From NCBI GenBank assembly GCA_963810955.1, contig CAWEPW010000043.1, positions 37,034-101,033 of the forward strand: DNA of 64,000 bases, in the 5' to 3' direction. The notes under the pieces were generated by a model. It was not told the DNA's origin. It saw nothing but the letters and a program-made list of their open reading frames with translations, and searched no databases. The position numbers were made by a program, and so were the translations under genes. This DNA comes from an uncultured Acidobacteriaceae bacterium. Its GTDB lineage: Bacteria; Acidobacteriota; Terriglobia; Terriglobales; Acidobacteriaceae. Within the stretch, counting starts at the first letter, position 1. Each line of letters starts with the position of its first letter. Shown one piece after another: positions 1 to 53,467 of the stretch.

Positions 1-1537
1 CGAGCACAGGAATCTCTTTTGGCGCAAGCGCTCCCACGCGCAGAGCGCGCTTGGTCAGCACCACCCAAAGCAATCCCAACCCGTAAACCGCGCCTGCAAT
101 CAAAAGTTGCAGAGCCAGTTCCACGTAATGGTGCGGGATAAACCAGCTTTGCATCAGGAGAAGCGCGAACACCATCGGTATGCTGATGAGTATTGGCAGC
201 ACGTAGGCCTCGCGCAAGTAGGTGCTTACGCGAATCCCAAGTTGTTTGCACAAGTGCCCCGGCATAAAAAAGATCATGCTGACCGCCAGCGGAATGGCCG
301 TGCCGTAGGCGTCGCCCTCTATGGCTCGCTCCACCGATGTATGAATGAACAGGCGCACCAGAACGATGCTCAGAACCAGGTTGGCAATGCCTTCGGCGAG
401 CGTGACGAAGGCCCAAGTCTTGTGCTTGCTGATTCCGAAGAGCACTCGTCCAGAAGCCGCCTGCGCCCACATCAGTGTCGCTGGGATGATCAGGATCACG
501 AGCACCGGGTAGCTGGTGGCGATATATTTCTTCCCGACCCACACTTCAATAATCGACTTGCCCAGCACCAGCAAGGTCGCGGTAATGGGGAAACAGGTGA
601 AGGCGCACAAGCGGTTCCCGGCCACGAAAACTTTCCGCAGGCGGTCCATTTTCCCGGTCGCTTCCGACTCGCTGGCCAGGGGCAGAAAATTCTGCGCCAG
701 CGCCATCACCACCTGTTGCGTGTAATTCACGATGCGGGAGCCGATGGTGAAATACGTGATGGCGGCCGCCGAAATCATGCTGCCAATCACGATGTTGTCG
801 GTCTTGAACTTCAGTTGGGTCGCGATCATGATGATCAGCGTGACTCCGCTGTAGTTCGCCATCAGGTGGAAGGTTTCGCGGTCCACATATTTCATCCCAA
901 ACGGAACGGGACGAATGCGGAAAGCGATAACTCCCCGGACCAATGAATTAATAATAGGAAGAGCCACCGTAATGGCCGCCACGGTGAGCAACCCCTTGCC
1001 GTGGGTAAGAGCAGTTACGATCAGAACGACGCGAACGGCATTGCCCGCGACGCTCGTCCAGTTGTTAACGTAAAACATCTGCAGCCCATCCAGAAAACCG
1101 CCCACGACGCCGAGGGGGAAGCCGAGCGCAATTGCAACTCCGACCATCCACAGCAACAAGCGAGCGGTTGAATGGAAGCCCGGCGGAATCTTGAATAGGT
1201 TGTCGACGTAAATTCCGAGCACGGCCGTCACCATCAGACTCAGAACGCCGATGCAGCTATAGCTGAAGAAGCTGGTATTGATCAGCTTGGCCAGGTCTTC
1301 AATGTCGTCAACCGCGGTGAACTTCGAGACATAGCGGACTATCGAGGAACGGATTCCGAGATCGAACAGACCGTAGTATCCCGTGATCGTAAAAATCAAA
1401 ACCCAGATGCCGGATGCGGTATCGCCCAGTTTGTGCAGTATGAAGGGGTAGAGCAGGAAACCGACAACGACGTCGACGCCCAGGGAGAACCAACTGGAGC
1501 CGACGTTCTTCATGATTTGACGTTTGTTGATGCTCAT
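1..1537 (-). CDS. MOP/Wzx-type polysaccharide flippase; ATG at 1537, C-terminus runs past the window start (partial)
   Basis: Reverse-complement translation from the ATG at 1537 gives MSINKRQIMKNVGSSWFSLGVDVVVGFLLYPFILHKLGDTASGIWVLIFTITG..., a hydrophobic multi-TM protein with a Wzx-like N-terminus. The stop-free plus-strand shadow ORFs 107-946 and 516-725 are consistent with a long minus-strand ORF. The ORF track omits edge-truncated ORFs, so it is not listed. Confidence 0.55.
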   Translation of the reverse strand, partial: MSINKRQIMKNVGSSWFSLGVDVVVGFLLYPFILHKLGDTASGIWVLIFTITGYYGLFDLGIRSSIVRYVSKFTAVDDIEDLAKLINTSFFSYSCIGVLSLMVTAVLGIYVDNLFKIPPGFHSTARLLLWMVGVAIALGFPLGVVGGFLDGLQMFYVNNWTSVAGNAVRVVLIVTALTHGKGLLTVAAITVALPIINSLVRGVIAFRIRPVPFGMKYVDRETFHLMANYSGVTLIIMIATQLKFKTDNIVIGSMISAAAITYFTIGSRIVNYTQQVVMALAQNFLPLASESEATGKMDRLRKVFVAGNRLCAFTCFPITATLLVLGKSIIEVWVGKKYIATSYPVLVILIIPATLMWAQAASGRVLFGISKHKTWAFVTLAEGIANLVLSIVLVRLFIHTSVERAIEGDAYGTAIPLAVSMIFFMPGHLCKQLGIRVSTYLREAYVLPILISIPMVFALLLMQSWFIPHHYVELALQLLIAGAVYGLGLLWVVLTKRALRVGALAPKEIPVL

Positions 1538-1540
1538 TGC

Positions 1541-1612
1541 GCGAAACTCATTGGGCGAAACTCATCGGGCGAAACTCATTGCAGAAAACTCTGGGAGCAA
1601 CTCATTGGAAGC
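1541..1612. repeat. About 5 tandem copies of a 14-nt unit (GCGAAACTCATYGG); the minus-strand flippase start codon (..caATGAGCatc) is a degenerate copy
   Basis: Read directly: gcgaaactcattgg gcgaaactcatcgg gcgaaactcattgc agaaaactctggg agcaactcattgg. The tract lies between the sulfotransferase A stop (1689) and the flippase start (1537). Confidence 0.85.
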
Positions 1613-1688
1613 AGCCCACTCTTCCCTGCCGGCGCTCGATGGGATTGCCGTTCGTTCGTTATCATAAAAATGGTCAGGAGAGCAGTCA

Positions 1689-2564
1689 TTAAAGTGGCTG
1701 ACCCGAAAGTGGCTGGGCCGTCCGAACCCACGCCGGCACAGTCTTGTTGTCCAATTCGCGGGTCTGTAGCGGGTAGCCGAGAAAATTCAAAAGTGGAGCC
1801 CAGGCGATTTCGATCTCCTGCACGCAGTGTTGGGGGAGGGTTTCCTTCCATCCCCCAGACTTCGCCGCCCGGACAAAGGGAATTTCTTTGCGCGTATTTT
1901 TGGTTCCGGTCCATTGGTCGGCTTGTTGTTTTTCGAGCTTGCGCATGCGGTCGGCCGAGCTTCGCTGCACCGCTGCTTCGAGACGTTCCGGGCTGGCTTG
2001 AATGCCGAGAAATTCGGCAATCTTGCCGGTTTCGCCAATCGAGTCCGAAAGCAAATCTTCGTAACGAACCAGATGAAACGCAGGATTGCCGTGACGGGCG
2101 GCGATCCAACTGGCGGCGTGCTCCCACCAGGAACCGTAACCTGCTGTCGTCCCCTTGATGAAGCGCTCGACGAACTGTTCGAGTGTGACGTCGGCCTCGA
2201 TGTAACGCTTTTTCAAGTCGAAGTGGTACTCGGAGACGGCAACGTCGCGCGGATCGCGCACCAGGTAGATAACTTTTCGAAAACGAACGTCAAAGGGCTC
2301 GTGGCTTTTCAAGATGCGGGGCCGCGGCAGACTCCTGAGGAACCGTTTCGAGGAAACGCCCGGAGCAGGCAGCAACCGGTTGATATTGGCGAAGCCCACG
2401 GTTTCATTCGGGTAGATCAGATTCGCCAGCAGAAAACGCACCCACGTATTGCCTGACTTCGGATACGACACAAGAAAGGTGTCGTCGGGGAAAACAGTGA
2501 ATTCATTCCCGGCCTGGTCGCGACCCAGGAGAACTTTCACGGCGTATTTGACGTGGCCAAGCAT
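1689..2564 (-). CDS. PAPS-dependent sulfotransferase, paralog A (likely start is the ATG at 2564; the track ORF extends to 2687 through the palindromic element)
   Basis: FPDDTFLVSYPKSGNTW (5'-PSB motif), RDPRDVAVSEY (3'-PB motif) and C-terminal FVRAAKSGGW. Colinear with the two downstream paralogs. Confidence 0.8.
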   Translation of the reverse strand: MLGHVKYAVKVLLGRDQAGNEFTVFPDDTFLVSYPKSGNTWVRFLLANLIYPNETVGFANINRLLPAPGVSSKRFLRSLPRPRILKSHEPFDVRFRKVIYLVRDPRDVAVSEYHFDLKKRYIEADVTLEQFVERFIKGTTAGYGSWWEHAASWIAARHGNPAFHLVRYEDLLSDSIGETGKIAEFLGIQASPERLEAAVQRSSADRMRKLEKQQADQWTGTKNTRKEIPFVRAAKSGGWKETLPQHCVQEIEIAWAPLLNFLGYPLQTRELDNKTVPAWVRTAQPLSGQPL

Positions 2565-2567
2565 TAT

Positions 2568-2656
2568 CAATTTGTAATTTGTGATTGGTAATTGGTAATT
2601 GGAACCCTTCGGTTTTGATCTCAAATTACCAATTACAAATTGCCAATTACAAATTT
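2568..2656. repeat. Palindromic element made of AATTACCAATTACAAATT-type units; two ~32-nt inverted arms around a ~22-nt loop. It fills the gap between sulfotransferases A and B
   Basis: caatttgtaatttgtgattggtaattggtaattgg...tctcaaattaccaattacaaattgccaattacaaattt. The arms are near-perfect reverse complements. Confidence 0.85.
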
Positions 2657-3519
2657 CTCCCGCTGCCGCTGAGAACTCCCAACGCATCGTTATCTCGCAC
2701 TTTCGCGGGAACCGTCGAACTCAACTCATATCCCAGGCGTTGCATCAGCGGTCCCCAAGCCGCTTCAATTCTCGCGGCCATGGGCGCGGGCAAATCGTTG
2801 CGCCATCCGCCCGAACCGGCCGCGCGTACAAACGATAGATCCTTGCGCGAGCCTTTCATCAGTTCATTTTTGTCTGGTTGCTTCTTTTCGAGTTTCCGCA
2901 TGCTATCGGCCGAACTTCGCTCCACAGCTTGAGCAATCAGCTCAGGGCTGGCCACGAGATGCAGAAACTCCACGACCTTGGTAAGTTCGCGGGCGGTATC
3001 AGCGACCAGATCTTCGTAGCGGAGCAGAAGGAACCGCGGACTTCCCTCGCTCGTGTAAAGCCAGGTGGCAACGTTCTGTCCCCATGAACCGTGGGGACAG
3101 GTTTCCCCGGCCATAAAGCGGGTGACAAATTTCTCGATCGGCGAGTCATCGTCGAGTTTTCTAAGCTTGCGATGATAGTGGTATTGCGAGACGACGACAT
3201 CGCGCGGGTCGCGAACGATATAAACTACGAGAGGATAGCGGGGATCGAAGCACTCATGGCTTTTGATGATGCGCGGCCGCGTCATGCGGTCGAAGTCCCT
3301 TTTCGCGGTGCCCTCGGGGTCGGGAATCAGGCGATTGATGTTTTCGAAAGTCGCCGGCTGTTCGGGAAATCTGAGGTTAGCCAGGAGAAACCGCGTCCAG
3401 GTATTGCCCGACTTGGGAAAAGAAACGAGAAAAATGTCATCCGGAAGAATGAGCAGGCTGCGCGAAGGCCGGTGCAGGCCCAATCCGCGTTGTATGCCAG
3501 CCATCAGATGCTTGATCAT
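2647..3519 (-). CDS. PAPS-dependent sulfotransferase, paralog B
   Basis: MIKHLMAGIQ...FPKSGNTWTRFLLANL...IVRDPRDVVVSQYH...FVRAAGSGGW. Sulfotransferase-domain motifs present; 290 aa. Confidence 0.85.
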   Translation of the reverse strand: MIKHLMAGIQRGLGLHRPSRSLLILPDDIFLVSFPKSGNTWTRFLLANLRFPEQPATFENINRLIPDPEGTAKRDFDRMTRPRIIKSHECFDPRYPLVVYIVRDPRDVVVSQYHYHRKLRKLDDDSPIEKFVTRFMAGETCPHGSWGQNVATWLYTSEGSPRFLLLRYEDLVADTARELTKVVEFLHLVASPELIAQAVERSSADSMRKLEKKQPDKNELMKGSRKDLSFVRAAGSGGWRNDLPAPMAARIEAAWGPLMQRLGYELSSTVPAKVRDNDALGVLSGSGRNL

Positions 3520-3540
3520 TCTTCAATCCCCAAAACCTAT

Positions 3541-3646
3541 TTGTAATTGGTAATTTGTAATTGAAAGTCCGCCCGTCCAACCTTCAAAATCGTCCTCCCA
3601 CATCACGATTTTCAAATTACCAATTACAAATTACCAATTACAAATG
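3541..3646. repeat. Second copy of the palindromic TTGTAATTGGTAATT element, between sulfotransferases B and C, with a ~45-nt loop
   Basis: cctatttgtaattggtaatttgtaattgaaag...ttttcaaattaccaattacaaattaccaattacaaatg. On the minus strand the hairpin is followed by tttt and then the gene B start. Confidence 0.85.
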
Positions 3647-3648
3647 TT

Positions 3649-4506
3649 CTACAAATCTTCCAGTCCCGAATGCACCCTCCTGGCCCCTACCAGGTTCGAC
3701 GTGGACAATTCGTAGCCCATCTCGCGCATCAGGCCGCCCCATGCCGATTCAATTTGGGCGAGGCTTGCCTCGGACAACTCCGCCTTCCAACCGCCCGATT
3801 TGGCGGCGCGGACGAACGGTTTATCTTTTCGCGTCTCGCGCGTCGAGGACCACAGGTGCGCCTGCTTTTTCTCCAGCTCGCGCATCCGATCGGCGGAGCT
3901 CTGCTCTATGGCAAAAGCCAGGCGTTCTGGCGTGGCTGAGATTCCCAGGAAGCTTGCGATTCTTTCCATCTCGTCCATGGCCTGCGACTGCAGCGACTCG
4001 TATTTCACCAACAGAAATCGAGGATCGCGGCGGCGGGTATAAAACCACGACGCGGCGTTTTCAAACCACGTTCCCGACTGATGGTTCACTTCGCCGCGAA
4101 CGAAGCGCCCGACAAATTCCGTCACCGGAAAATCGTCCGGAATAGCCCGCCGTTTGATGTCGAAGTGATATTCCGACAGCACAACGTCGCGCGGATCGCG
4201 AACGATGTAGATCACTTTCGGATAGCGAGGATCGAAATATTGGTGGCTCTTGAGCAGGCGCGGGCGCGCTGCGCGCTCCAGATCCTTCTTCGCCATCGCC
4301 TCTGGATCAGGGACTAAATCATTAATATTCGAAAAATCGGGATTCTTTTCGGGATAGACCAGATTGGCAATGAGAAACCGCGTCCAGGTGTTGCCGGACT
4401 TGGGATAAGAAACCAGAAAGACGTCATCGGGAAAAACGTGCAAATTGCGGCCGGGCGGATGCAGACCGAAAAAGTATTTCCCTCCCGCGATCAAACGCTT
4501 AATCAT
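3649..4506 (-). CDS. PAPS-dependent sulfotransferase, paralog C (start taken at MIKRLIAGG by analogy with paralog B; the track ORF starts at 4557)
   Basis: FPDDVFLVSYPKSGNTWTRFLIANL, YIVRDPRDVVLSEYH, FVRAAKSGGW. Third tandem paralog on the same strand. Confidence 0.8.
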   Translation of the reverse strand: MIKRLIAGGKYFFGLHPPGRNLHVFPDDVFLVSYPKSGNTWTRFLIANLVYPEKNPDFSNINDLVPDPEAMAKKDLERAARPRLLKSHQYFDPRYPKVIYIVRDPRDVVLSEYHFDIKRRAIPDDFPVTEFVGRFVRGEVNHQSGTWFENAASWFYTRRRDPRFLLVKYESLQSQAMDEMERIASFLGISATPERLAFAIEQSSADRMRELEKKQAHLWSSTRETRKDKPFVRAAKSGGWKAELSEASLAQIESAWGGLMREMGYELSTSNLVGARRVHSGLEDL

Positions 4507-4602
4507 TGATGGTACCCAACCCTGGATGTAACCCGACCCCGACGCGACTAAACCCAAATTCCAGATGCAGACTCATGCTTATCCGTTTTCGATCCCAGGC
4601 GA

Positions 4603-5589
4603 TCAAGCCGTAGCTCCGTGGCGCATCCAACTCCAGAAAGACATGAGACGGCTAGTCGCTCCGGGCGCGATGCCCAAGCCAACGACCGCAAGGCTCAACA
4701 CCGCGCTATGCAAAAAACCGTTCGCTTCCGCAATCAACTCGCGCGCCTTGTCAAACTGGCGTTCTTCCAGCTTGCATTTGCCCTCTTCCAGCAGATAGCG
4801 GGCCCGAATCTCAGCGGCACGCTTTTCAACCACCGCGCGATCGGCGCCTTCGAGCGGCAAAGTTCGCAGGAACTTATCCAGAATACACCAGTAGGCTTCG
4901 GCCATTCTGGCCCGCGACACGCTGAGCGAACCGGGGCGGCCGATGAAGAGACGAGCCTGAACCGCGCGCCCATAGCTGATTTTCGCCCCGCTGTAGGCAG
5001 CCCGCACCCACATATCGTAATCGTCGCAGCGCGCCAGTTTTTCATCGAACAAGCCCGCGTCCATCAGACTCTTTTTTCGCGCTACCACGGTTGAAATCGG
5101 AATCTGGCAATCTTCCACGATCAAGGCGGCAAACGTAGCCTGACCATGGGACGGGCACTTCTCCATGAACGGCCTCTCGGTCGCCGGGTCGCCGACGAGA
5201 AGCGCGTTGGCATAGACCAGATCGAGCGCTGGATCGTCCGCGATCAGCTTCATCTGCGCCGCGAGGTGGTTCGGATACCAGCTGTCATCGCTGTCGAGAA
5301 AGGCTACGAACTCTCCGCGAGCCTGCCGAATGGCGTTGTTGCGCGCAGCGGCGGCGCGCTTGTTCTCCTGCTTGATGTAAACCAGCCGTTTCTCGCCGCT
5401 GATGTAAGGCTGCAAAACCTTCTCCAGTTCGGGCGTATCCGGCGATCCGTCGTTGACGACGATCGCCTCGAAATCCGCGTAGGTCTGCGCGAAAACGGAG
5501 TCGAGGCAAGCCGCGATCAAATCGGCGGTCTTATAGCTCGGGATGATCACGCTGACCCTGGGCGCCGGATTGGTTTCGGCTGCTGGCAT
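4603..5589 (-). CDS. Family 2 glycosyltransferase (GT-A fold)
   Basis: VSVIIPSYKTADLIAACLDSVFAQTYADFEAIVVNDGSPDT and a DSDD motif. 328 aa, intact. Confidence 0.8.
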   Translation of the reverse strand: MPAAETNPAPRVSVIIPSYKTADLIAACLDSVFAQTYADFEAIVVNDGSPDTPELEKVLQPYISGEKRLVYIKQENKRAAAARNNAIRQARGEFVAFLDSDDSWYPNHLAAQMKLIADDPALDLVYANALLVGDPATERPFMEKCPSHGQATFAALIVEDCQIPISTVVARKKSLMDAGLFDEKLARCDDYDMWVRAAYSGAKISYGRAVQARLFIGRPGSLSVSRARMAEAYWCILDKFLRTLPLEGADRAVVEKRAAEIRARYLLEEGKCKLEERQFDKARELIAEANGFLHSAVLSLAVVGLGIAPGATSRLMSFWSWMRHGATA

Positions 5590-5612
5590 TCTTTTAATCG
5601 CGTTAGAACTTG

Positions 5613-5707
5613 ACCATCAGTCGTTGGTCATCAGTCGTCGGTCGTTAGTCGTCGGCAGACTCAGCTTGCGAACGACTAACGACTAACGACCGACGACCAG
5701 TGACTGA
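5613..5707. repeat. Inverted-repeat element built from heptad GTCGTYR repeats in the left arm and ACGACYR repeats in the right arm; lies between the glf stop and the GT2 start
   Basis: catcagtcgttggtcatcagtcgtcggtcgttagtcgtcggc...cgaacgactaacgactaacgaccgacgaccagtgactga. A second family member lies at 53345-53465. Confidence 0.75.
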
Positions 5708-5712
5708 ATCTC

Positions 5713-7077
5713 CTACGAACTGTGAAACACCAGTTCCTTTTCTCCGGCGATGATGTTATTCGCCGCTTCCACGCCCATCATCACCGAGTGATCCATATTT
5801 CCGATTTCATAGCGCCACGCGCCAAAACGTCCGCGAGAATAAATACCTTTTTCGAGCAACGCCGGTTGCAACACCTCGAGCGCGCGGTCGCGGCCGAGCG
5901 TCGGGATCGGATACGAGTAGCCGACCGTTCGGTGATAACGCGAGACAATGCGCCCACGGTCCGATTCCTCCAGCATATTAGTCCGGATCAGTTCGGTGGT
6001 TACCTGATCAAGAATTTTTTCCGGGTCGGGCGTTTCTCCTACCCGGAATGACATTTCGCACATCAGCGAACTGTAGTGCTCGATATCGCCGTTCGGCACG
6101 TTGTTCGGCGAGTAATGCGAAAAATAGGTGGCGCGATAGCACGGCATCTGCGGGTCGGTGAAGTAAATCCAGCAGCGTCCGGTCTCTATCTTCTTCTTAA
6201 TGCCAAGGCCAACCACCAGAAGATTGTTGTGTTCGAGGCCCTGGGCGGCATCGAGCAGCCGGTTGTCGGCCGGCTTGATCATCTTCGTGAGCAGATCGAG
6301 CGGCGCGGTCGAGATCAGCAGATCGTAATTGTCGCCGGTGCCGTCGGCGAACGAAACCCGGCGTTTCTCCAGATCGACCTCGGCCAGCTTTTTGCCGGTA
6401 ATTATCTTCTTCGGAAAGTAGGCGGCCATGCGCCGGTAGATCTCGCCGGTTCCGCCGTGCAGCGGGAACTTGAACTTGTTGTTCGGACCCCAGGCCACAT
6501 CGTCGCGCTCATAAAGAACGTTTTCGAGCAGCCGTTTGAAATCTATCGCCGCCACGCGCTCGGCGATCCAGGTCTTCGACATCTGTTCGAGCGGAGTGGT
6601 CCACACCTTGGAGTTATAGGGAAACATGAATTCTTCGGCGATGCCCTCGCCCATGGTGGCCAGAATCCAGTCGCGAAAGTTTCCCGCCTCGCGTCCGCCG
6701 CCGTTCGATGCGGCTTTGGCCGCGCCGATGAGGCAACTGACCTGAACCTCTTTAGGCAAGTAGCGCAGATTGCTCTGAAACGGGTATGGAACCCACGATT
6801 CGCCTCTTACGATCCAGCTCTCGCGAATGCGCTCGTGAACTTCTTTGCCAAGAGCCTTGTCGATCAGCCGGTCGAAATAGGGATAGTGCGAAAAGATGAC
6901 GTGGCCGCCCTCATCCCAGACAAATCCATTCTTATCTACATGGGAAGTGGCGTGCCCGCCGACATACTCGGATTTCTCATAAAGAACCCAGTTATCGTAG
7001 CCCAGTTCATGGAGACGGTAGGCCGCGCCCAGTCCGGTCGGTCCTGCTCCGATAATGACAATTTTCTTGCTCGCCAT
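5713..7077 (-). CDS. glf: UDP-galactopyranose mutase, eukaryotic-type (~450-500 aa class)
   Basis: IIGAGPTGLGAA Rossmann motif. GGHVIFSHYPYFD, WVPYPFQSNLRYLPKE, CYRATYFSHYSPNN and SRGRFGAWRYEIGNMDHS closely match the conserved blocks of fungal and kinetoplastid UGMs (recalled sequence, not a database search). Confidence 0.75.
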   Translation of the reverse strand: MASKKIVIIGAGPTGLGAAYRLHELGYDNWVLYEKSEYVGGHATSHVDKNGFVWDEGGHVIFSHYPYFDRLIDKALGKEVHERIRESWIVRGESWVPYPFQSNLRYLPKEVQVSCLIGAAKAASNGGGREAGNFRDWILATMGEGIAEEFMFPYNSKVWTTPLEQMSKTWIAERVAAIDFKRLLENVLYERDDVAWGPNNKFKFPLHGGTGEIYRRMAAYFPKKIITGKKLAEVDLEKRRVSFADGTGDNYDLLISTAPLDLLTKMIKPADNRLLDAAQGLEHNNLLVVGLGIKKKIETGRCWIYFTDPQMPCYRATYFSHYSPNNVPNGDIEHYSSLMCEMSFRVGETPDPEKILDQVTTELIRTNMLEESDRGRIVSRYHRTVGYSYPIPTLGRDRALEVLQPALLEKGIYSRGRFGAWRYEIGNMDHSVMMGVEAANNIIAGEKELVFHSS

Positions 7078-7113
7078 AAGATTGAATCGAGGGATGAGCT
7101 GGTCTTTGTCTTT

Positions 7114-7196
7114 GGATTCGGATTCGCTAACTCCGGATTGGCCGACTCTGGACTCGCCAACTCCGGATTCGCTAACTCCATGGATCGGCTGACTCC
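7114..7196. repeat. About 5 tandem copies of a 15-nt unit (GGAYTSGCYRACTCC) immediately upstream of the glf start (minus-strand gene)
   Basis: ggattcgctaactcc ggattggccgactct ggactcgccaactcc ggattcgctaactcc atggatcggctgactcc. Confidence 0.8.
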
Positions 7197-8114
7197 ATGC
7201 GGACCAGCATCTCCTAATCGGACATCGAATCGAACATCGGCATGACCGCTCTGAGTTTCCGAAGAAATCTTTGCAGGAGAACCAAATTGTAGCATAGGGT
7301 TTTTGCCCTTCCTGTGTGCCGAAAGTAACCGTGGATTAACGAAAATGCGCCGTCTGCCGCTGCATCTCAGCGCTTCCCGTCTTGCTGCGGCTTGGTGCTC
7401 CGCAAAGCACAGCCGCAGGCGGAAATCGTATCCCTTCAGCGGCTAGACAAACAACGAACGGAGGAAAAAGAGGAGGGAAAATAAAATCAGCCTTACTAGC
7501 GAAACCGGCATCTCTTAAGCGAACCGCTTATTTCGTGCGCCAACGGATTTCGGAGCCAACCTTGTCGGCGCAACCTTCGGCTCGCCGGTGCAAATAGTTA
7601 CTTATGATTACTTATTCCGAGGGCAGGTACTGCCGGCTGATCGGCCAACTGCTAGAATCACGTACTTAAGTGTTGCAGAATTTCATTGATTTTGGAGGCT
7701 TTTTCGTTGGGCCGATCAAGTCGAAGCGGTTCCACCATTAATTCCCAATCCGGGATGAATATCGCAACTTTTTTCACTTCGGTCGAGACTGTCCGCGACC
7801 GCAGGAACTAGTGAGTTGATCACACAATGATTTCATTATCTTACGATGAAAGATTCGTCGAATTTCGGAAGTCGAATTGCTCGCTAAATCACACGGAAGA
7901 CTTATTGACGTACGCCTGATTGACACAATGCCTGAAACATCTACTGCCTAGAGCTAGTTTACCCAATCGGACGTGACCAGTGCGTCCAGGGTGAGGAAGG
8001 AATTTTGGGATGAGGCCCAGCGATACCGATAACAAGCAGAAACACAAATTTGAAGTCGACATTGCCCTGAAATCGGAAGGGAATGCTGCCGCAAACACCG
8101 GGAGGAATAAGGAC

Positions 8115-9858
8115 TTGACCGCTTCAGGTAGCCATCTGATCGCCCCGCATGGGGGAGAACTGGTTCAGCTGCAAGTGCCGGCCGCGCGCGCCGCGGAGTT
8201 GAAGGCGCACTCGAAAGATTGGCCTTCGTGGGACCTGACCGCCCGGCAGCTTTGCGATCTGGAATTGTTGACCAGCGGCGGCTTTTCTCCGCTGCGCGGG
8301 TTTATGAATCGCGCCGATTACGAAGGCGTGTGCCACAACATGCGCCTGGCGAACGGCACACTTTGGCCGATGCCGATCACTCTCGACGTCAGTGAAGAAT
8401 TTGCCAAGAAACTGACCCCCGGTTCGAGCAAAATCGCGCTGCGCGATCCCGAAGGCGTGATGCTCGCCGTGCTCAACGTTGAAGACGTCTGGCAACCGGA
8501 CCGCAAGAGTGAAGCTCAATCCGTCTTTGGTTCCACCAGCGCCGCGCACCCGGGTGCGGACTACGCGATCAACAAGTCGCATCCGTGGTACGTGGGCGGA
8601 ACGATCGAAGAGTTGCAGGCTCCGTCGCACTACGATTTCCGCGCCCTGCGCCTGACTCCGGCCGACCTGCGTGCCGAGTTCCGCCGCCTGGGTTGGACCA
8701 CCGTCGTAGCCTTCCAGACGCGTAATCCCATGCATCGCGCCCACGTCGAGCTGACCATGCGCGCCGCCAAGCAAGTCGAGGCGAATCTGCTCATCCATCC
8801 TTCGGTCGGCATGACCAAGCCCGGCGACGTGGACTATTTCGTCCGCACCCGCTGCTACGAGCTGCTGCTGGCCAAGTATCCGCACGGCACAGTAAAGCTC
8901 TCGATGCTGCCGCTTGCCATGCGCATGGGCGGGCCGCGCGAAGCGCTGTGGCATGGCTTGATCCGCAAGAATCATGGCTGCACTCATTTCATCGTCGGCC
9001 GCGATCATGCCGGACCGGGCAAAGACACCGATGGCAGGAACTTCTACGGACCTTACGATGCCCAGGAACTATTCAAGAAACATCAGGAAGAAATGGGCGT
9101 CAAGATGGTTCCTTTCCAGATGATGGTTTATCTGCAGAATGAAGACCGTTATGTGCCTTCAGACGAAGTCCCACAGGGCGCGAAGGTCCTCGACATTTCA
9201 GGAACGGAATTGCGTCAACGCCTCAACGAGGGCCGTGATATTCCCGCTTGGTTTACCTATCCCGAAGTGGTGCAGGAATTGCGCCGCAGCTATCCGCCAC
9301 GCCACAAACAGGGCGTCACGATTTTCTTTACCGGTCTTTCGGGCTCGGGCAAGTCGACGATCGCCAACGCCCTGATCACGAAGTTCCTGGAGATGGGCGG
9401 ACGTCCCAGTCACTCTGCTCGACGGCGACCTGGTGCGCAAGAACCTGTCGTCGGAATTGGGCTTCTCGAAGGAGCATCGCGACATCAACATTCGCCGCAT
9501 CGGCTACGTCGCTTCCGAAATCACCAAGAACGGCGGCATCGCCATCTGCGCCCCCATCGCTCCTTACCAGGCGACGCGCAAGGCGGTGCGGCAGATGATT
9601 GAGCCTTTCGGCGGCTTCATCCTAGTGCACGCGGCTACGTCGATCGAAGTCTGCGAACAGCGCGATCGCAAGGGCCTCTACGCCAAGGCGCGAGCCGGCA
9701 TTGTCAAGGAATTCACCGGCATCTCCGATCCTTATGAGGCACCTGCCGATGCCGAAGTGGTCATCGATACTGCTAAGCTGACTCCCGAAGAAGCCGCCCA
9801 GACCATTATTTTGCACCTGGAGCGCGAGGGCTTTGTCGGGGCCAACGGCAACGGATAG
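8115..9858 (+). CDS. sat/cysC: Bifunctional sulfate adenylyltransferase (Sat-type ATP sulfurylase) with a C-terminal APS kinase domain (PAPS synthase). The reading frame is interrupted by a +1 indel near 9405-9410. The likely start is TTG at 8115, preceded by GGAGGA; the track ORF starts at 8010
   Basis: [24 protein letters not shown] and GRDHAGPG are ATP sulfurylase motifs. The C-terminal [22 protein letters not shown]-loop continues after the shift in frame 9433-9858 ([30 protein letters not shown]...). One extra nucleotide in cgtcccagtcact separates the two frames. Confidence 0.8.
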
Positions 9859-10144: not shown

Positions 10145-10915
10145 ATGGAATTCTTGCTGCTAAAAGTACTGATCGGCTTCTGCGTCGGAACGCTGATCGG
10201 CTTAACGGGTCTGGGCGGCGGCGTATTGCTTTTGCCCATGCTCATCTTTGGCCTGCACATCCCCGCCATCATCGCCGTCGGCAGCGACGCGATGTTCAAC
10301 TTCTTCACCAAGATTCCCGCCAGCATCATGCACATCTGGCGGGGCACGGTGCGGAGAAAAGTCGTGCTCGCCATGGCCATCGGCAGCATGCCCGGCTCCT
10401 ATCTCGGCGTAACTTTTCTCGTGCACCTGCGCCACGTTTACGGCAACCACGTCAACGATTTCATCAAATCCGCGGTAGGGTTATTGCTCGTCTTAATTCC
10501 CACCCTGCTGATGTTTCAGGGCCGGATCGAGGACCATCTAGCCGGCCGCACGCCGACCATGAAGTCATTCGCCTTCATGAGCGTAATCGGACTTACCGGC
10601 GGATTCCTGGTGGGCATCACCTCGGTCGGCTCGGGCAGCATCATCATGATGTTGCTTCTTTTGTTTTATTCCTTCCCTCCCAAGATCATGGTCGGCACCG
10701 ACATTGCCCATGCCGTGCTTCTCACCGGCGTGACCAGTCTGTTGCACTGGCGGGCAGGCAACGTTGACGGGCATCTGGTCGGAGCATTGCTCATCGGGTC
10801 GATTCCCGGCGGAATGCTTGGCTCGTATCTGACTACGCGTGTCCCGGTACTGTGGCTGCGGCGAATCCTGTGCACCGTCTTGCTGATCACCGGAGCGCGC
10901 ATGTTGTGGGTGTAA
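10145..10915 (+). CDS. TauE/SafE (DUF81) family anion permease; a candidate sulfate or sulfite transporter by context
   Basis: 256 aa polytopic membrane protein with two halves each carrying GxGGG-like motifs (LTGLGGGVLLLP and ITSVGSGSIIMM). It sits between sat-cysC and cysQ. Confidence 0.7.
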   Translation: MEFLLLKVLIGFCVGTLIGLTGLGGGVLLLPMLIFGLHIPAIIAVGSDAMFNFFTKIPASIMHIWRGTVRRKVVLAMAIGSMPGSYLGVTFLVHLRHVYGNHVNDFIKSAVGLLLVLIPTLLMFQGRIEDHLAGRTPTMKSFAFMSVIGLTGGFLVGITSVGSGSIIMMLLLLFYSFPPKIMVGTDIAHAVLLTGVTSLLHWRAGNVDGHLVGALLIGSIPGGMLGSYLTTRVPVLWLRRILCTVLLITGARMLWV

Positions 10916-10920
10916 GAAAC

Positions 10921-10996
10921 ATTGAATCATTTTGACATTGAGTCATTAATGAATAATTCAATGCCTCAATGCCTCAATGATTCAATGACTCAATAG
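10921..10996. repeat. AT-rich tract of ~8-nt tandem repeats (CAATGMYT) in the 5' region of cysQ
   Basis: caatgcct caatgcct caatgatt caatgact caatagcc, preceded by ttgaatc attttgac attgagtc. Local GC is far below the genome background. Confidence 0.75.
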
Positions 10997-35250: not shown

Positions 35251-38200
35251 CTATTCCGCAGGGTCGTAGTTCAGGTTTTGCCCGAGCCATCGCTCGATCT
35301 CGGCCACGCTCATCCCCTTGCGTTTGCTATAGTCGGCGACTTGATCGCGGTCGATCTTGCCGAGACTGAAATATCGCGACTCCGGATGCGCGAAGTAAAG
35401 CCCGCTCACGCTCGAACCAGGCCACATCGCAAACGATTCCGTGATCAGCATCCCTGTATTGGCCCGCACATCGAGCAATCGCCAAAGGGTGCCCTTCTCC
35501 GTGTGATCCGGGCAAGCCGGATAGCCCGCAGCCGGCCGTATGCCCCTATATTTCTCGTGGATGAGATCCGCGTTGCTCAGACCTTCGCCACAACCGTAAC
35601 CCCATTGTTCCCGCACCCGCTTGTGCAGGCACTCGGCGAAAGCTTCAGCCAGGCGATCGGCAATCGCCTCGGCCATGATCGCGTTATAGTCGTCGTTCTT
35701 CGCGCGGAACCCGTCGCACAGTTCCTTCAATCCGATTCCGCTCGTTACGGCGAATGCACCGACGTGATCGGACAACCCCGTTTCCTTGGGCGCGATGAAG
35801 TCAGCAAGCGATCGGCACGGCTCGCTGCCCTCTTTATTGGATTGCTGACGAAGGAAGTGGAAACGCTCGAGCGTCTTTTCGTGTTTGTTATCCGTGTAGA
35901 GTTCGACATCGTCGCCCACGGCATTGGCTGGAAACAAGCCGTAAACGCCCCGCGCCGTGATCAGGTTTTTCCCCACGATCTGATCCAGCAGCGCATTGGC
36001 TTCGGCAAAGATCTGCCGGGCCTGTGCGCCTTGTCCTTCGTGCTCAAGAATGCGGGGATAAACTCCCTTCAGCCCCCAGGTGTGAAAAAACGGCGTCCAG
36101 TCAATGAAGTCGCGGAGCGTCGCCAGCGGAAAGTTGTCGAGCACCCGCACACCGGTAAATGACGGTGTAGGCAGGTCTTCGGCACGCCACTCAATGGGAG
36201 TTCGTCTCTTTCGCGCGGCCTCAAGCGAGATGACGCTTATCTTCTGCGCGGAATGGGACTTGCGAAGCGCATCGTAATCCGCGCGATGTTGCGCCACGAA
36301 TGCCGGCTTGCCCTCGTCGCTCAGAAGGCTGGTCGTCACCGGCACCGCCCGGCTGGCATCCAGGATGTGCACCACCGGCTCGCTATAGTGAGGCGCGATC
36401 TTGACGGCGGTGTGCGCCCGGCTCGTGGTTGCCCCGCCGATAAGCAGCGGCAATTTGAAGCCCTGCCGCTCCATCTCGCGGGCAACGTGCACCATCTCGT
36501 CGAGAGAGGGCGTGATCAGGCCGCTGAGTCCGATGAGATCCGCCTTTTCCGCCTTGGCGCGTTCCAGGATTTTTTCGCACGGGACCATCACTCCCATATC
36601 GATCACTTCATAGTTATTGCAAGCAAGGACCACGCCGACTATATTCTTGCCGATGTCGTGAACGTCGCCCTTGACGGTAGCGAGAAGGATTTTTCCCTGC
36701 GCCTTGACCACCTGGCCAGAGGCAGCCATCGCGACTTTCTCGGCCTCCATGAACGGCGTCAGGTGCGCCACCGCCTTCTTCATCACGCGGGCCGACTTGA
36801 CCACTTGAGGCAAGAACATCTTTCCCGCGCCGAACAGATCGCCGACCACACCCATGCCGGCCATCAAGCGGGCCCTCGATCACCAACAGAGGGCGGCCGA
36901 GCTTCAAGCGGGCTTCTTCGGTATCGAGTTCAATATAGGCGTCGATTCCCTTCACCAGCGCGTGGGAAAGACGCTCCTCGACCGTGCCGTTGCGCCATTC
37001 TTCGGCCTTTTTCTCACTTACTGCCTTGCCGACGCCTTTTAGCTTTTCGCCATAGTCCACCAGCCGCTCGGTCGCATCTGGACGGCGATTCAGCAGCACA
37101 TCCTCGACCAGAACCTTCAGCTCAGGCTCAATTTCTTCATAGACCTCGAGCATTCCGGCATTGACGATACCCATGTCCATGCCCGCGGTGATGGCGTGAT
37201 AAAGAAACGCGGAGTGCATGGCCTCACGCACCTTGTTATTGCCCCGGAAGCTGAAGGAGATATTCGAGACGCCGCCGCTGACTTTTGCGTGCGGCAGATT
37301 GGCCTTGATCCAACGCGTGGCGTTGATGAAATCAACCGCGTAGTTGTTGTGCTCCTCCATGCCGGTGGCAACGGTGAGGATGTTCGGATCGAAGATGATG
37401 TCTTCGGGGGGAAAGTCAACTTCGTCAACCAATATCCTGTAGGCGCGCTCGCAGACGCGGATCTTGTCGTCGAAAGTCGCGGCCTGGCCCTGCTCGTCGA
37501 AGGCCATCACCACCACAGCCGCGCCATACTTCATGACCGTGGCGGCGTTGTGGCGAAACTTCTCTTCGCCTTCTTTCAGCGAGATTGAATTGACAATACC
37601 CTTGCCCTGTAGACACTTCAGCCCCGCCTCGATAACCTCCCATTTCGAGGAGTCGATCATGAAAGGCACCTTGGCGACTTCGGGTTCGCTGGCCAGCAGT
37701 TGCAGGAAGCGCGTCATGGCGATGACGCCATCGATCATGCCCTCGTCCATACAAATATCGAGGACATTCGCTCCATTCTCAACCTGCTGACGGGCAACGC
37801 TTACCGCTTCTTCGTATTTACCCGCCTTGATGAGTTGCGCGAATTTGGGCGAACCTGCCACATTGGTTCGTTCGCCGATCACGATATAAACCCCAGGTTG
37901 TTGCGTGAACGGCTGCGATCCTGAGAGACGAAGCGGCTTGATCTCCCCCGCCTCGGGCACACTTATGATATCGGCCACACTCACTCTCTGCTCTCGCTTT
38001 GAATTGCGTAGGACCCCTCAACGAGCGTCGTGCCCCATCTTCGCGGGGGCTGGCCTTCGAGCGCCTTGGCGATAGCCGCGATGTGCTCGGGCGTATTGCC
38101 GCAGCAACCGCCAGCGATGTTGATCAGCCCTCCTCGCGCGAAGTCGCCGAGATAACGAGCCATATCCTGCGGCCTGAGATCGAAGCCGGTTTCCGACAGC

Positions 38201-53341: not shown

Positions 53342-53344
53342 AAA

Positions 53345-53465
53345 AGCGTCGTTCGTCGTCAGTCTTTTGTCGTTCGCGCAGGTCTACCCATTGCAGGTCT
53401 GCTGTAGGTCTCAGAATTTTAGAATGCCAACGACTGACGACTAACGACCATCGACCAACGACCGC
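53345..53465. repeat. Inverted-repeat element with heptad GTCGTYR and ACGACYR arms around a core holding three AGGTCT repeats; second member of the family seen at 5613-5707
   Basis: gcgtcgttcgtcgtcagtcttttgtcgttcgcg caggtctaccc attg caggtctgctg taggtctca...ccaacgactgacgactaacgaccatcgaccaacgaccgc. Confidence 0.75.
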
Positions 53466-53467
53466 TC

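What the first reader, a model, noticed from the sequence alone, without database searches (positions are those of the whole stretch)
1537..1612. 14-nt tandem repeat that includes the flippase start codon
Five copies of GCGAAACTCATYGG abut the minus-strand flippase start. On the coding strand the repeat reads CCAATGAGTTTCGC. The genuine start (CAATGAGCATC) is therefore the last, slightly diverged copy, and each upstream copy carries an out-of-frame ATG. Because 14 is not a multiple of 3, copy-number change by slippage would move upstream ATGs and uORFs relative to the coding frame. The tract is thus a plausible slipped-strand on/off or translational modulation switch for EPS export. It also doubles as the 3' flank of sulfotransferase A.
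Basis: partly seen in the sequence, partly recalled or inferred. Interest (0 to 1): 0.55.

Follow-up and report, generated by a model that had tools for sequence, protein, structure and literature searches.

The report
Repeated start codons relay ribosomes
In front of a soil acidobacterium's polysaccharide-export (flippase) gene, a 14-base repeat that copies the gene's own start codon builds a chain of tiny reading frames, each stopping on the next start, which would pass ribosomes from the preceding gene to the flippase, and relatives differ in copy number without breaking the chain.

Summary
The repeat is real but smaller than described. There are three near-perfect 14-nt copies (1538-1579), two decayed 13-nt units (1580-1605) and a partial copy holding the flippase start (ATG 1537-1535, minus strand). 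That start is confirmed by the conserved N-terminus of 120 homologues.

The on/off frameshift idea is not supported. Every unit begins ATGA and the spacings (26, 14, 14, 14) all equal 2 mod 3. Each mini-ORF therefore stops on a TGA that overlaps the next ATG, and adding or removing a unit cannot break this.

A continuous chain of 1-nt or 4-nt stop/start overlaps runs from the sulfotransferase stop (TAATG) to the flippase ATG. The same topology holds in 9 of 11 related lineages, although their arrays differ in unit number and sequence.

- In those lineages, 41 of 45 intergenic ATGs funnel onto the flippase start.
- Upstream of 35 other genes, 1 of 34 ATGs does so.
- About 20% do so in shuffled sequences.

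The closest relative has two copies instead of three, a clean 14-nt indel. Near-identical contigs from different samples show no variation.

Best reading: tandem duplication of the translation-initiation module produced a termination-reinitiation relay that tunes flippase translation rather than toggling it. Translation itself is untested.

The parts
1687..1691 (-). TAATG junction: the stop codon TAA of sulfotransferase A (1691-1689) overlaps by 1 nt the ATG (1689-1687) of the first bridging ORF.
   Evidence: TAATG is kept in 9 of 11 expanded lineages, including L027 and L039. L008 has TAGTG instead. In L039 the overlapping ATG opens only a 2-codon ORF that links to nothing.
1576..1689 (-). 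Bridging ORF of 37 codons plus stop (MTALLTIFMITNERQSHRAPAGKSGLLPMSCSQSFLQ*). It has in-frame ATGs at 1665 and 1605. Its TGA (1578-1576) overlaps the ATG at 1579.
   Evidence: The peptide is not conserved among relatives, but the open frame and its end junction are.
1619..1626 (-). Purine-rich motif GGGAAGAG, 13 nt upstream of the ATG at 1605. It is a candidate ribosome-binding element of the ancestral start.
   Evidence: GGAAGAG-N13-ATG aligns in all 17 sequences of alignment A1. This includes the short-spacer relatives, in which that ATG is the flippase start itself.
1580..1605 (-). Two decayed 13-nt units, ATGAGTTGCTCCC and AGAGTTTTCTGCA. The first carries the ATG (1605) at the position of the ancestral flippase start. 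The second has lost its ATG. Together they span 26 nt (2 mod 3).
   Evidence: The 13+13 arrangement is shared with L033, L005, L007, L027, L032 and L037.
1566..1579 (-). 14-nt unit 1, ATGAGTTTCGCCCG. It starts mini-ORF MSFAR* (1579-1562). This unit, or one of its neighbours, is absent in L037.
1552..1565 (-). 14-nt unit 2, ATGAGTTTCGCCCA. It starts mini-ORF MSFAQ* (1565-1548).
1538..1551 (-). 14-nt unit 3, ATGAGTTTCGCGCA. It starts mini-ORF MSFAQ* (1551-1534), whose TGA overlaps the flippase ATG. It also supplies GAG 9 nt upstream of that ATG.
   Evidence: GAG-N9-ATG stands before the flippase start in all 11 expanded lineages (sequences).
1..1537 (-). Wzx-type polysaccharide flippase. The start ATG is at 1537-1535, in the context ATGA. 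The gene runs off the left edge of the window (528 aa in the identical database protein P0001).
   Evidence: Pfam Polysacc_synt and Polysacc_synt_3. P0001 is 100% identical, and the N-termini are conserved.
1689..2564 (-). Sulfotransferase A, the upstream gene whose stop opens the relay.
   Evidence: Pfam Sulfotransfer_1, E = 5.9e-44. Synteny with the flippase is conserved in all relatives.

Best explanation
The tract is a tandem duplication of the flippase's own translation-initiation module (GAG, about 9 nt, then ATGA).

**Anatomy.** Each unit begins ATGA and the unit length is 3n-1. The units therefore encode a chain of mini-ORFs whose TGA stops each overlap the next ATG. Upstream, a 37-codon ORF starts on the sulfotransferase A stop (TAATG) and ends on the first of these ATGA junctions. 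The whole 151-nt spacer is thus bridged by 1-nt or 4-nt stop/start overlaps, the geometry known to support termination-reinitiation.

**Proposed working.**
- Ribosomes leaving sulfotransferase A are handed step by step to the flippase ATG.
- So are ribosomes that load on any AUG of this unstructured leader, which lacks a Shine-Dalgarno sequence.
- None can run over the flippase ATG in a wrong frame.
- Gaining or losing a unit by slippage keeps the relay intact but changes the number of reinitiation steps. The array would therefore act as a throttle on flippase translation, not an on/off switch.

**Shown:** the anatomy, its conservation through repeat turnover, the copy-number difference, and the lack of RNA structure.

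**Inferred:** co-transcription of the two genes, translation of the mini-ORFs, reinitiation, and any effect on flippase yield.
For: **The chain in the window.** It is continuous and uses only strict overlaps: TAATG, then ATGA four times.

**Conservation of the topology.**
- Nine of eleven expanded-spacer lineages keep a complete strict relay, with 1 to 4 bridging ORFs. Their spacers are only 50-77% identical and differ by 5-67 gap columns.
- L039 lacks only the first junction.
- In L027, a single ATG-to-ACG change in one unit breaks the chain.

**Fate of intergenic ATGs.**
- 41 of 45 ATGs in these spacers end, directly or through overlapping junctions, on the flippase ATG. The mean in dinucleotide shuffles is about 0.2.
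- In the 120 nt upstream of 35 other genes from the same genomes, 1 of 34 ATGs does so.
- A complete relay arises in 0.03-3.3% of shuffles.
- In 602 kb scanned, chains of three or more short ORFs (up to 40 codons) that then overlap the start of a long ORF were found only at the flippase junctions of L005, L007 and L033. The window's own chain of four short ORFs is the longest found.

**Frame of the nearest upstream ATG.** It lies 14, 26, 38, 50 or 56 nt from the flippase ATG, all 2 mod 3, in 10 of 11 lineages. Counting about 7 independent configurations, my rough binomial estimate is p of about 0.007.

**Robustness.** Single-base indels break the relay at only 13-26% of positions in array-rich variants. 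The figure is 90% in L029, where one long ORF bridges the spacer.

**Copy number.** L037 has 2 units and the window has 3. The remaining 54 array bases are identical and the upstream patch matches at 40 of 41 positions, while fourfold-degenerate sites differ by 22.6%.

**RNA structure.** The array RNA folds worse than shuffles (z = +1.9 and +1.8), and 9 of 11 lineages have z above 0.

**Initiation context in this organism.** Many genes in the window lack a Shine-Dalgarno sequence. Real gene pairs in the window overlap by 4 or 1 nt, at 37981-37984 and 47446-47449.

**Literature.**
- Overlaps of -4 and -1 nt couple translation (PMC6728339).
- A gap of about 20 nt abolishes coupling, and the last 15 nt of an upstream ORF suffice for it (PMC10666635).
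Against: - There are no expression data of any kind: no transcription start, no ribosome profiling, no reporter assays.
- The mini-ORF starts have at best a 3-base GAG as a Shine-Dalgarno-like element.
- A perfect 14-nt repeat containing ATGA produces a chain automatically. An unrelated 8-nt repeat at 10958-10994 also yields three chained mini-ORFs that lead nowhere.
- The lineages share ancestry, so the counts are not independent.
- L027 shows that a broken relay can exist in nature.
- Arrays differ strongly even between fairly close pairs, such as L008 and L039 with 16% fourfold divergence. Unit sequence is therefore not strongly constrained.
- The near-identity of the window and L037 extends about 165 nt into the flippase gene, with only 3 mismatches. 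It could be a recombination tract rather than selection.
- If each reinitiation step is inefficient, four or five steps would deliver few ribosomes. De novo initiation at the last ATG could then dominate.
Confidence: 0.55

Rival explanations
1. Tolerated by-product. Slippage repeatedly duplicates the start region. The upstream AUGs are used by ribosomes, but the array regulates nothing. Selection only removes arrangements whose uORFs would run over the flippase start, so only 3n-1 or ATGA arrangements survive.
For: - It fits the same frame statistics.
- It fits the fast turnover of units between lineages.
- It fits the non-conserved peptides.
- It fits the fact that ATGA repeats of period 3n-1 form chains automatically.
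Against: - It does not explain why ATG-bearing units accumulate here at all. There are about 4 ATGs per spacer, against about 1 per leader elsewhere.
- It does not explain why the chain is anchored on the sulfotransferase stop codon in 9 of 11 lineages.
- It does not explain why the array is identical over 54 nt between the window and L037.
Confidence: 0.25
2. Repeated binding sites. The conserved GAGU(U) core of each unit is bound on the mRNA by a protein or small RNA that controls flippase translation or mRNA stability. The mini-ORFs are incidental.
For: - The GAG(T/C) core is the best-conserved part of most units, including units that have lost their ATG (sequences).
- GAG lies 9 nt before the flippase ATG in all 11 lineages.
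Against: - No candidate binder was identified.
- It does not predict the frame rule (10 of 11 nearest ATGs at 2 mod 3) or the funnelling of 41 of 45 ATGs.
- The first unit in several lineages reads ATGAAT or ATGAAG and has no GAG.
Confidence: 0.1
3. Slipped-strand on/off phase variation. Changes in copy number move upstream ATGs in or out of frame and so switch flippase and EPS export on and off at high frequency.
For: - The unit is not a multiple of 3.
- Copy number differs between relatives.
- The target is a surface-polysaccharide gene, a typical target of contingency loci such as licA with its CAAT repeats (PMC2212159).
Against: - The repeat lies upstream of the conserved N-terminus, not between a start codon and the gene body.
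- Every unit carries a stop that closes its own mini-ORF, so no copy number gives an in-frame or out-of-frame alternative.
- Lineages with 0, 1, 2 or 3 units all keep the same end junction.
- Arrays are identical among 2 to 5 contigs of 97.8-100% identity in four lineages.
- Only three good copies are present.
Confidence: 0.05
4. Neutral, untranslated repeat. The chain of overlaps is coincidence.
For: No direct evidence of translation. Perfect repeats produce the pattern by construction.
Against: - Shuffle and real-leader controls.
- Retention of the relay despite more than 23% substitution and many indels. Simulated random substitution at 15-20% keeps it in only 10-48% of trials.
Confidence: 0.05

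Closest known systems
Translational coupling by termination-reinitiation at overlapping stop/start codons (ATGA, TGATG) of adjacent genes (Huber et al. 2019, PMC6728339; Huber et al. 2023, PMC10666635; review PMC12548453)
   Same: Every junction here has the -4 (ATGA) or -1 (TAATG) geometry. The 5-codon mini-ORFs match the finding that the last 15 nt of an upstream ORF are sufficient for coupling. The same genome uses such overlaps between real genes.
   Different: Known cases are single junctions between two protein-coding genes. Here four or five junctions are chained through non-conserved mini-ORFs to cross a 90-150 nt spacer, a distance that direct coupling cannot bridge. The chain is built from a tandem repeat whose copy number varies.
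uORFs coupled to the main ORF in bacterial leaders (e.g. Sinorhizobium meliloti uORFs, PMC13285730; M. tuberculosis B12-riboswitch-controlled uORF, PMC11260477, known to me only from the title in the search list)
   Same: A short upstream ORF whose stop overlaps the main start and through which ribosomes reach a poorly initiating gene.
   Different: Those cases have one uORF with its own ribosome-binding site. Here there is a series of uORFs generated by duplication of the start region, and the series is anchored on the upstream gene's stop codon.
Haemophilus influenzae hmw1A (ATCTTTC)n repeat in the 5' UTR (PMC12721329)
   Same: A tandem repeat upstream of the start codon of a surface-structure gene, in which repeat number grades expression rather than toggling it.
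   Different: In hmw the repeat acts through a long 5'-UTR hairpin cleaved by RNase III and needs at least 11 copies. Here the array is less structured than shuffled sequence, has 1 to 3 good copies, and carries start and stop codons.
Haemophilus influenzae licA CAAT repeats with alternative initiation codons (PMC2212159)
   Same: A repeat that is not a multiple of 3, near the 5' end of a surface-glycan gene, with several candidate ATGs and slippage changing copy number.
   Different: In licA the repeat lies inside the ORF, between the ATGs and the gene body, so copy number sets the frame (on or off). Here the repeat lies upstream of the conserved N-terminus and each unit closes its own frame.
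TAACTGA direct heptamer repeats immediately upstream of start codons in Beggiatoaceae, cyanobacteria and Bacteroidetes (PMC4679880)
   Same: Short direct repeats abutting start codons in genomes poor in Shine-Dalgarno sequences. They contain stop codons in all frames, are predicted to be unstructured, and are suspected to act in translation.
   Different: Those are a genome-wide family with a fixed heptamer and no ATG. The repeat here is locus-specific, is derived from the gene's own start, and contains ATG.

Membership tests
Termination-reinitiation coupling at overlapping stop/start codons | Co-directional ORFs whose stop and start codons overlap by 4 nt (ATGA) or 1 nt (TAATG/TGATG) | tested here: met
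   The junctions are TAATG at 1691-1687 and ATGA at 1579, 1565, 1551 and 1537.
Termination-reinitiation coupling at overlapping stop/start codons | The overlap is conserved among relatives | tested here: met
   The final junction on the flippase ATG is kept in 10 of 11 lineages and the complete chain in 9 of 11.
Termination-reinitiation coupling at overlapping stop/start codons | Translation of the downstream ORF depends on translation of the upstream ORF | not testable with these tools
   This needs reporter constructs with premature stops, or ribosome profiling.
Termination-reinitiation coupling at overlapping stop/start codons | Both ORFs lie on one transcript | tested here: inconclusive
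   The genes share a strand, and no terminator-like site was found in 1538-1688. One weak promoter-like match (1689-1661, 9 of 12) is not conserved in L037. No transcript data are available.
Simple-sequence-repeat phase variation, translational switch (licA type) | The repeat lies between initiation codon(s) and the body of the ORF, so that copy number sets the reading frame | tested here: not met
   The repeat lies upstream of the conserved N-terminus. Each unit contains a stop for its own ATG, and no in-frame path leads into the flippase.
Simple-sequence-repeat phase variation, translational switch (licA type) | High-frequency copy-number heterogeneity within populations or among near-identical strains | tested here: inconclusive
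   Arrays are identical among contigs of 97.8-100% identity in four lineages. A 2-versus-3-copy difference is seen only at about 91% nucleotide identity. No read-level data are available.
5'-UTR repeat rheostat acting through an RNA hairpin (hmw1A type) | The repeats form one arm of a stable 5'-UTR hairpin | tested here: not met
   The window's array folds worse than dinucleotide shuffles (z = +1.92 and +1.77). No inverted partner exists, and z is above 0 in 9 of 11 lineages.
5'-UTR repeat rheostat acting through an RNA hairpin (hmw1A type) | Expression is graded with repeat number | not testable with these tools
   Needs reporter constructs with defined copy numbers.
Leader-peptide transcription attenuation | A leader ORF with regulatory codons plus alternative terminator and antiterminator hairpins | tested here: not met
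   No terminator-like site was found. The region has no significant structure, no conserved structure and no Rfam match, even at E up to 1.
TAACTGA-type intergenic direct repeats | The heptamer TAACTGA, repeated directly and dispersed at many loci | tested here: not met
   The unit is ATGAGTTTCGCCCA (14 nt). It occurs at no other place in the window at 0 or 1 mismatch.

The most novel reading that the evidence does not exclude
Arrays of ATGA-headed units of length 3n-1 are an evolvable 'ribosome relay'. This would be a frame-independent funnel: TGA appears in all three frames within 42 nt, and each TGA sits on an AUG. It would let termination-reinitiation coupling cross spacers far longer than the roughly 20-nt limit measured for single junctions. 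Its throughput would be tuned by slippage of whole units. This would be a previously undescribed way to couple and throttle a toxic membrane protein (Wzx) to the enzymes upstream of it, in bacteria that make little use of Shine-Dalgarno sequences. A more speculative extension concerns the Cys and Ser codons of many of the mini-ORFs (MSCSQSFLQ, MSCHPSCHQ, MKCFLSCVPMSCFQ). They might make relay throughput sensitive to sulfur supply, in an operon that builds a sulfated polysaccharide.
Probability: 0.3. Interest if true: 0.75.

Novelty: new variant of a known kind. Interest (0 to 1): 0.6.

Why it matters
Translational coupling is thought to need overlapping or almost touching genes. A gap of about 20 nt abolishes it in both E. 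coli and Haloferax. A conserved chain of overlapping mini-ORFs across a 90-150 nt spacer would show how cells can extend coupling over distance. It would also show how a simple mutational process, slippage of a start-codon module, can create and retune such a device without ever switching the gene off.

It also corrects a tempting misreading. A repeat that is not a multiple of 3 next to a start codon is not automatically a phase-variation switch.

Practically, it gives a compact and easily synthesised test system (0 to 5 units of 14 nt) for measuring reinitiation efficiency per step. It also flags a sulfated-polysaccharide operon in soil Acidobacteriota whose intergenic regions are unusually rich in dynamic short repeats.

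Tried and rejected
1. **Alternative start at 1513 (MKNVGSS).** Rejected. That Met is Ile in most homologues, and MS(K)INKRQI upstream of it is conserved.
2. **A known RNA family or riboswitch in the spacer.** None found at gathering score in the window, nor at E up to 1 in 1400-1800.
3. **Stable RNA structure, or a hairpin sequestering the purine-rich motif.** The array is less structured than shuffles. RNAalifold finds no consensus pair in 17 aligned sequences.
4. **An internal promoter or terminator.** There is only one weak promoter-like match (1689-1661), no better than chance and not conserved in L037. No terminator-like site lies in the spacer.
5. **The same relay in the other four spacers of the operon.** Absent. 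Those spacers carry heptamer-repeat hairpins instead.
6. **The 8-nt repeat at 10958-10994 as a second relay.** It forms three chained 3-codon ORFs, but it is one arm of an inverted repeat and links to no gene start.
7. **Exact-protein look-ups of window proteins and of P0001** to recover the source contig or sister strains. Nothing is on record.
8. **Purifying selection on the array inferred from the window-L037 comparison** (1 mismatch in 95 nt against 22.6% at fourfold sites). Kept only as suggestive. The low-divergence tract runs about 165 nt into the flippase gene, and other close pairs (L008/L039, L025/L027) show diverged arrays.
9. **A Y1 transposase as the driver of the repeats.** One is present next to the flippase in L033 only, with no homologue in the window.
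Full report
**Setting**

The window comes from a member of the Acidobacteriota. The flippase encoded at its left edge is 100% identical to a database protein from a 138-kb contig. Its nearest named relatives are MAGs labelled Terriglobales, Bryobacteraceae and Acidobacteriaceae.

On the minus strand lies a co-directional row of genes:
- an FAD amine-oxidase-like gene (7077-5713);
- a GT2 glycosyltransferase (5589-4603);
- three paralogous sulfotransferases, C (4506-3649), B (3519-2647) and A (2564-1689);
- a Wzx-type flippase (1537 to beyond position 1).

An ATP-sulfurylase gene with a fragment of an APS-kinase domain (Pfam match to profile positions 1-30 of 152 only) is transcribed divergently at 8010-9602. 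In relatives the flippase is followed by a convergent phosphoesterase gene, so it is the last gene of the row.

**The observation**

The repeat exists where stated, but it is three near-perfect 14-nt copies, not five. The pattern GCGAAACTCATYGG matches at 1541, 1555 and 1569 with 0, 0 and 1 mismatches. A fourth match at 1595 has 2 mismatches and is shifted by one base. The unit between them is badly decayed.

TRF gives 3.6 copies of period 14 with a score of 79. No other match with 0 or 1 mismatch occurs in the 64 kb.

The start codon at 1537-1535 sits in a partial sixth copy. It is the true start: MS(K)INKRQI is conserved in 120 homologues, and the Met at codon 9 is Ile in most of them.

**What the repeat encodes**

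Read on the coding strand and phased on ATGA, the tract is:

ATGAGTTGCTCCC | AGAGTTTTCTGCA | ATGAGTTTCGCCCG | ATGAGTTTCGCCCA | ATGAGTTTCGCGCA | ATGAGCATC...

The ATG-to-ATG spacings are 26, 14, 14 and 14, all equal to 2 mod 3. Each ATG therefore opens an ORF whose TGA is the TGA of the next ATGA: MSCSQSFLQ*, MSFAR*, MSFAQ*, MSFAQ*. The last TGA overlaps the flippase ATG.

Upstream, the frame of the first of these ORFs is open back to an ATG at 1689. That ATG overlaps the TAA stop of sulfotransferase A (TAATG). The entire 151-nt spacer is thus bridged by four ORFs joined by 1-nt or 4-nt stop/start overlaps. All six ATG triplets in the spacer belong to this chain.

This is the longest chain of short overlapping ORFs on either strand of the window. 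The other four spacers of the operon have none.

**Relatives**

Forty loci were fetched in all. Thirty-one of them carry the upstream part of the flippase junction, and these reduce to 11 distinct expanded-spacer and 11 distinct short-spacer variants.

*Short-spacer relatives.* Where the flippase is 77-84% identical, the spacers are mostly 41-51 nt. One exception of 82 nt (L014) carries a hairpin insertion. These spacers read AGGAAGAG-N13-ATGAGT and have no repeat. A few more distant loci at about 70% identity (L004, L018/L019, L024) have spacers of 21-49 nt and also lack the repeat.

*Expanded-spacer relatives.* In the clade with 86-93% identity, the spacer is 90-151 nt. It contains units of the form (AT)GAGTYGC...CC that differ in number and sequence from lineage to lineage.

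Alignment shows that the first upstream ATG of the expanded clade occupies the position of the ancestral flippase start, with the same GGAAGAG-N13 motif before it. The array therefore arose by tandem duplication of the start region, and the working start moved downstream.

**Conservation of the chain through turnover**

The spacers are only 50-77% identical pairwise, with 5-67 gap columns. Even so:
- Nine of the eleven distinct lineages have a complete strict relay from the sulfotransferase stop to the flippase ATG, built from 1 to 4 ORFs.
- L039 lacks only the first junction, because of an 18-nt insertion.
- L027 is broken by one ATG-to-ACG change. Its last uORF overruns the flippase ATG by 13 nt.

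Controls:
- Across the eleven lineages, 41 of 45 spacer ATGs end on the flippase ATG, directly or through overlapping junctions. The mean fraction in dinucleotide shuffles is about 0.2.
- Upstream of 35 other genes from the same genomes, 34 ATGs were found. One funnels, 22 terminate without a link, and 11 overrun the start.
- A complete relay appears in 0.03-3.3% of shuffles.
- Random substitution at 15-20% keeps the relay in 10-48% of trials.
- In 602 kb scanned, chains of three or more short ORFs (up to 40 codons) that then overlap the start of a long ORF were found only at the flippase junctions of L005, L007 and L033. The window's own four-ORF chain is the longest found, but its link could not be scored because the flippase ORF runs off the window.
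- The nearest upstream ATG lies 14, 26, 38, 50 or 56 nt from the flippase ATG in 10 of 11 lineages. If these are treated as about 7 independent configurations, chance is about 0.007 (my estimate).

The lineages share ancestry, so none of these numbers is an exact probability.

**Copy number**

The closest relative found is L037. Its sulfotransferase A is 96% identical in protein and the region is about 91% identical in DNA. It carries the same array with two 14-nt units instead of three. The difference is a clean 14-nt indel, and the other 54 array bases are identical.

Other lineages have 0, 1 or 2 such units, or their own lineage-specific duplications.

It does not toggle anything, however. 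The relay is intact at every copy number seen.

On short timescales the array looks stable. Two to five contigs per lineage, from different samples and 97.8-100% identical, carry identical arrays in four lineages. Assemblies cannot reveal minority variants.

**Is the sequence itself constrained?**

Between the window and L037 there is 1 mismatch in 95 aligned bases of the patch plus array. Fourfold-degenerate sites in the flanking genes differ by 22.6%.

I do not lean on this result, for two reasons. The low-divergence tract continues about 165 nt into the flippase gene, which could mean recombination. Other close pairs also have quite different arrays.

In all ten pairs tested, alignable spacer columns diverge less than fourfold sites (7-24% against 16-46%). 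Gap placement flatters that comparison.

**Mechanism**

Overlaps of 4 and 1 nt are the geometry at which termination-reinitiation couples adjacent genes in bacteria and archaea (PMC6728339). Coupling collapses when the gap reaches about 20 nt, and the last 15 nt of an upstream ORF suffice for it (PMC10666635).

A 90-150 nt spacer therefore cannot be crossed in one step. It could be crossed by stepping stones, and the 5-codon mini-ORFs are exactly 15 nt long.

Several further observations fit this reading:
- The organism appears to rely little on Shine-Dalgarno sequences. Many likely starts in the window, including those of this operon, lack one.
- It has real gene pairs that overlap by 4 or 1 nt.
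- The array RNA is less structured than shuffled sequence. In such organisms this makes any AUG a potential start.
- A GAG lies 9 nt before the flippase ATG in all eleven lineages.

With period 14, the TGA rotates through all three frames every 42 nt. A ribosome entering in any frame therefore stops on an ATGA. Consistent with this, single-base indels break the relay at only 13-26% of positions in array-rich variants, against 90% where one long ORF bridges the spacer.

I therefore read the tract as a relay that collects ribosomes from sulfotransferase A and from any spacer AUG. It delivers them to the flippase ATG and prevents wrong-frame read-over. Unit number would set how many inefficient reinitiation steps lie in the path.

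Co-transcription, translation of the mini-ORFs and the effect on yield are all inferences. A purely passive version, in which the array is a tolerated by-product filtered by selection against overrunning uORFs, fits most of the data and is the main rival.

**Comparison with known systems**

- *Coupled gene pairs and uORF-coupled leaders* (PMC13285730). The tract would work like these, but with a multi-step chain generated by a variable repeat. I found no precedent for that in the literature searched.
- *licA-type switch.* It fails the defining test, because the repeat is not between a start codon and the gene body (PMC2212159).
- *hmw1A-type rheostat.* It fails the defining test, because there is no hairpin (PMC12721329).
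- *TAACTGA repeats of Beggiatoaceae.* It resembles them in position and in the Shine-Dalgarno-poor context, but not in sequence or distribution (PMC4679880).

**Verdict**

I rate it a new variant of known kinds, of moderate to high interest, resting on comparative sequence evidence only.

Noticed in passing
window 2565-2646, 3520-3648, 5590-5712, 53342-53467: Four spacers between co-directional genes are filled by long hairpins whose arms are themselves tandem heptamer repeats. There are two families: AATTGGT/AATTTGT and CGACTAA/CGACCAA/CGACTGA. Arms are 25-41 nt and 80-100% complementary. The same kind of hairpin sits at orthologous junctions in relatives (L032, L034, L029, L039), but its length changes. 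L037 has only a 25-nt spacer (GACCTGA twice) between sulfotransferases B and A, and a much expanded 171-nt array before the GT2 gene. No Rfam match. Function unknown; an intercistronic RNA stabiliser or processing site, or a REP-like element, are possibilities.
   Followed up: partly
window 7119-7179 (minus strand, 42-102 nt upstream of the ATG at 7077): Four copies of a 15-nt unit (GGAGTTAGCGAATCC on the coding strand) lie upstream of the amine-oxidase-like first gene of the row. Each unit contains GGAG. An ATG at 7181 opens an out-of-frame ORF (MELANPELASPESANPELANP...) that runs over the gene's start.
   Followed up: no
window 10921-10995: An 8-nt repeat, TCAATGMY, in 4.6 copies. It faces CATTGA units upstream as an inverted repeat, between the genes ending at 10915 and starting near 11017/11033. 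Because 8 = 9-1 and the units contain ATGA, it also forms three chained 3-codon mini-ORFs. These link to no gene, which is a reminder that such chains arise automatically in ATGA repeats.
   Followed up: partly
L037 4878-4925: The 5' part of the same spacer in the closest relative carries its own 12-nt repeat, ATGACCGCNNNN, in about 4 copies. This gives four in-frame ATGs in the bridging ORF (MTTSMTARMTALMTTTS...). With a period that is a multiple of 3, all four stay in the relay frame.
   Followed up: partly
window 1-9602: The gene content indicates a sulfated-polysaccharide cluster in an acidobacterium: three paralogous PAPS-type sulfotransferases, a GT2 glycosyltransferase, a Wzx flippase and a divergent ATP-sulfurylase gene carrying a fragment of an APS-kinase domain. 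One paper in the library describes sulfated exopolysaccharides as a speciality of cyanobacteria among bacteria (PMC8205485, abstract seen).
   Followed up: no
window 37981-37984 and 47446-47449: Two pairs of long ORFs overlap by 4 nt (GTGA) and by 1-4 nt (TTGATG). This organism therefore uses the stop/start overlaps typical of translationally coupled genes.
   Followed up: no
L033 3388-3921: A 177-aa Y1 (IS200/IS605-type or REP-associated) transposase gene lies directly downstream of the flippase in one relative only. tblastn finds no homologue in the window or in the other loci.
   Followed up: yes
L014 (flippase spacer, 82 nt): In one short-spacer relative the sulfotransferase-flippase spacer has acquired a near-perfect hairpin of about 40 nt (cccaccctaacgtcgcaaaaaccgcgacgttaggatgggg) instead of an ATGA array. 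The same spacer has thus been expanded in a different way in another lineage.
   Followed up: no
window 1689-2687 (minus strand): The sulfotransferase A frame stays open for 41 codons upstream of its likely start (2564), right through the heptamer hairpin. It reaches an ATG at 2687 that lies inside the end of sulfotransferase B. This is probably coincidence, but a gene caller could pick the long form. The exact 291-aa product is not on record.
   Followed up: no
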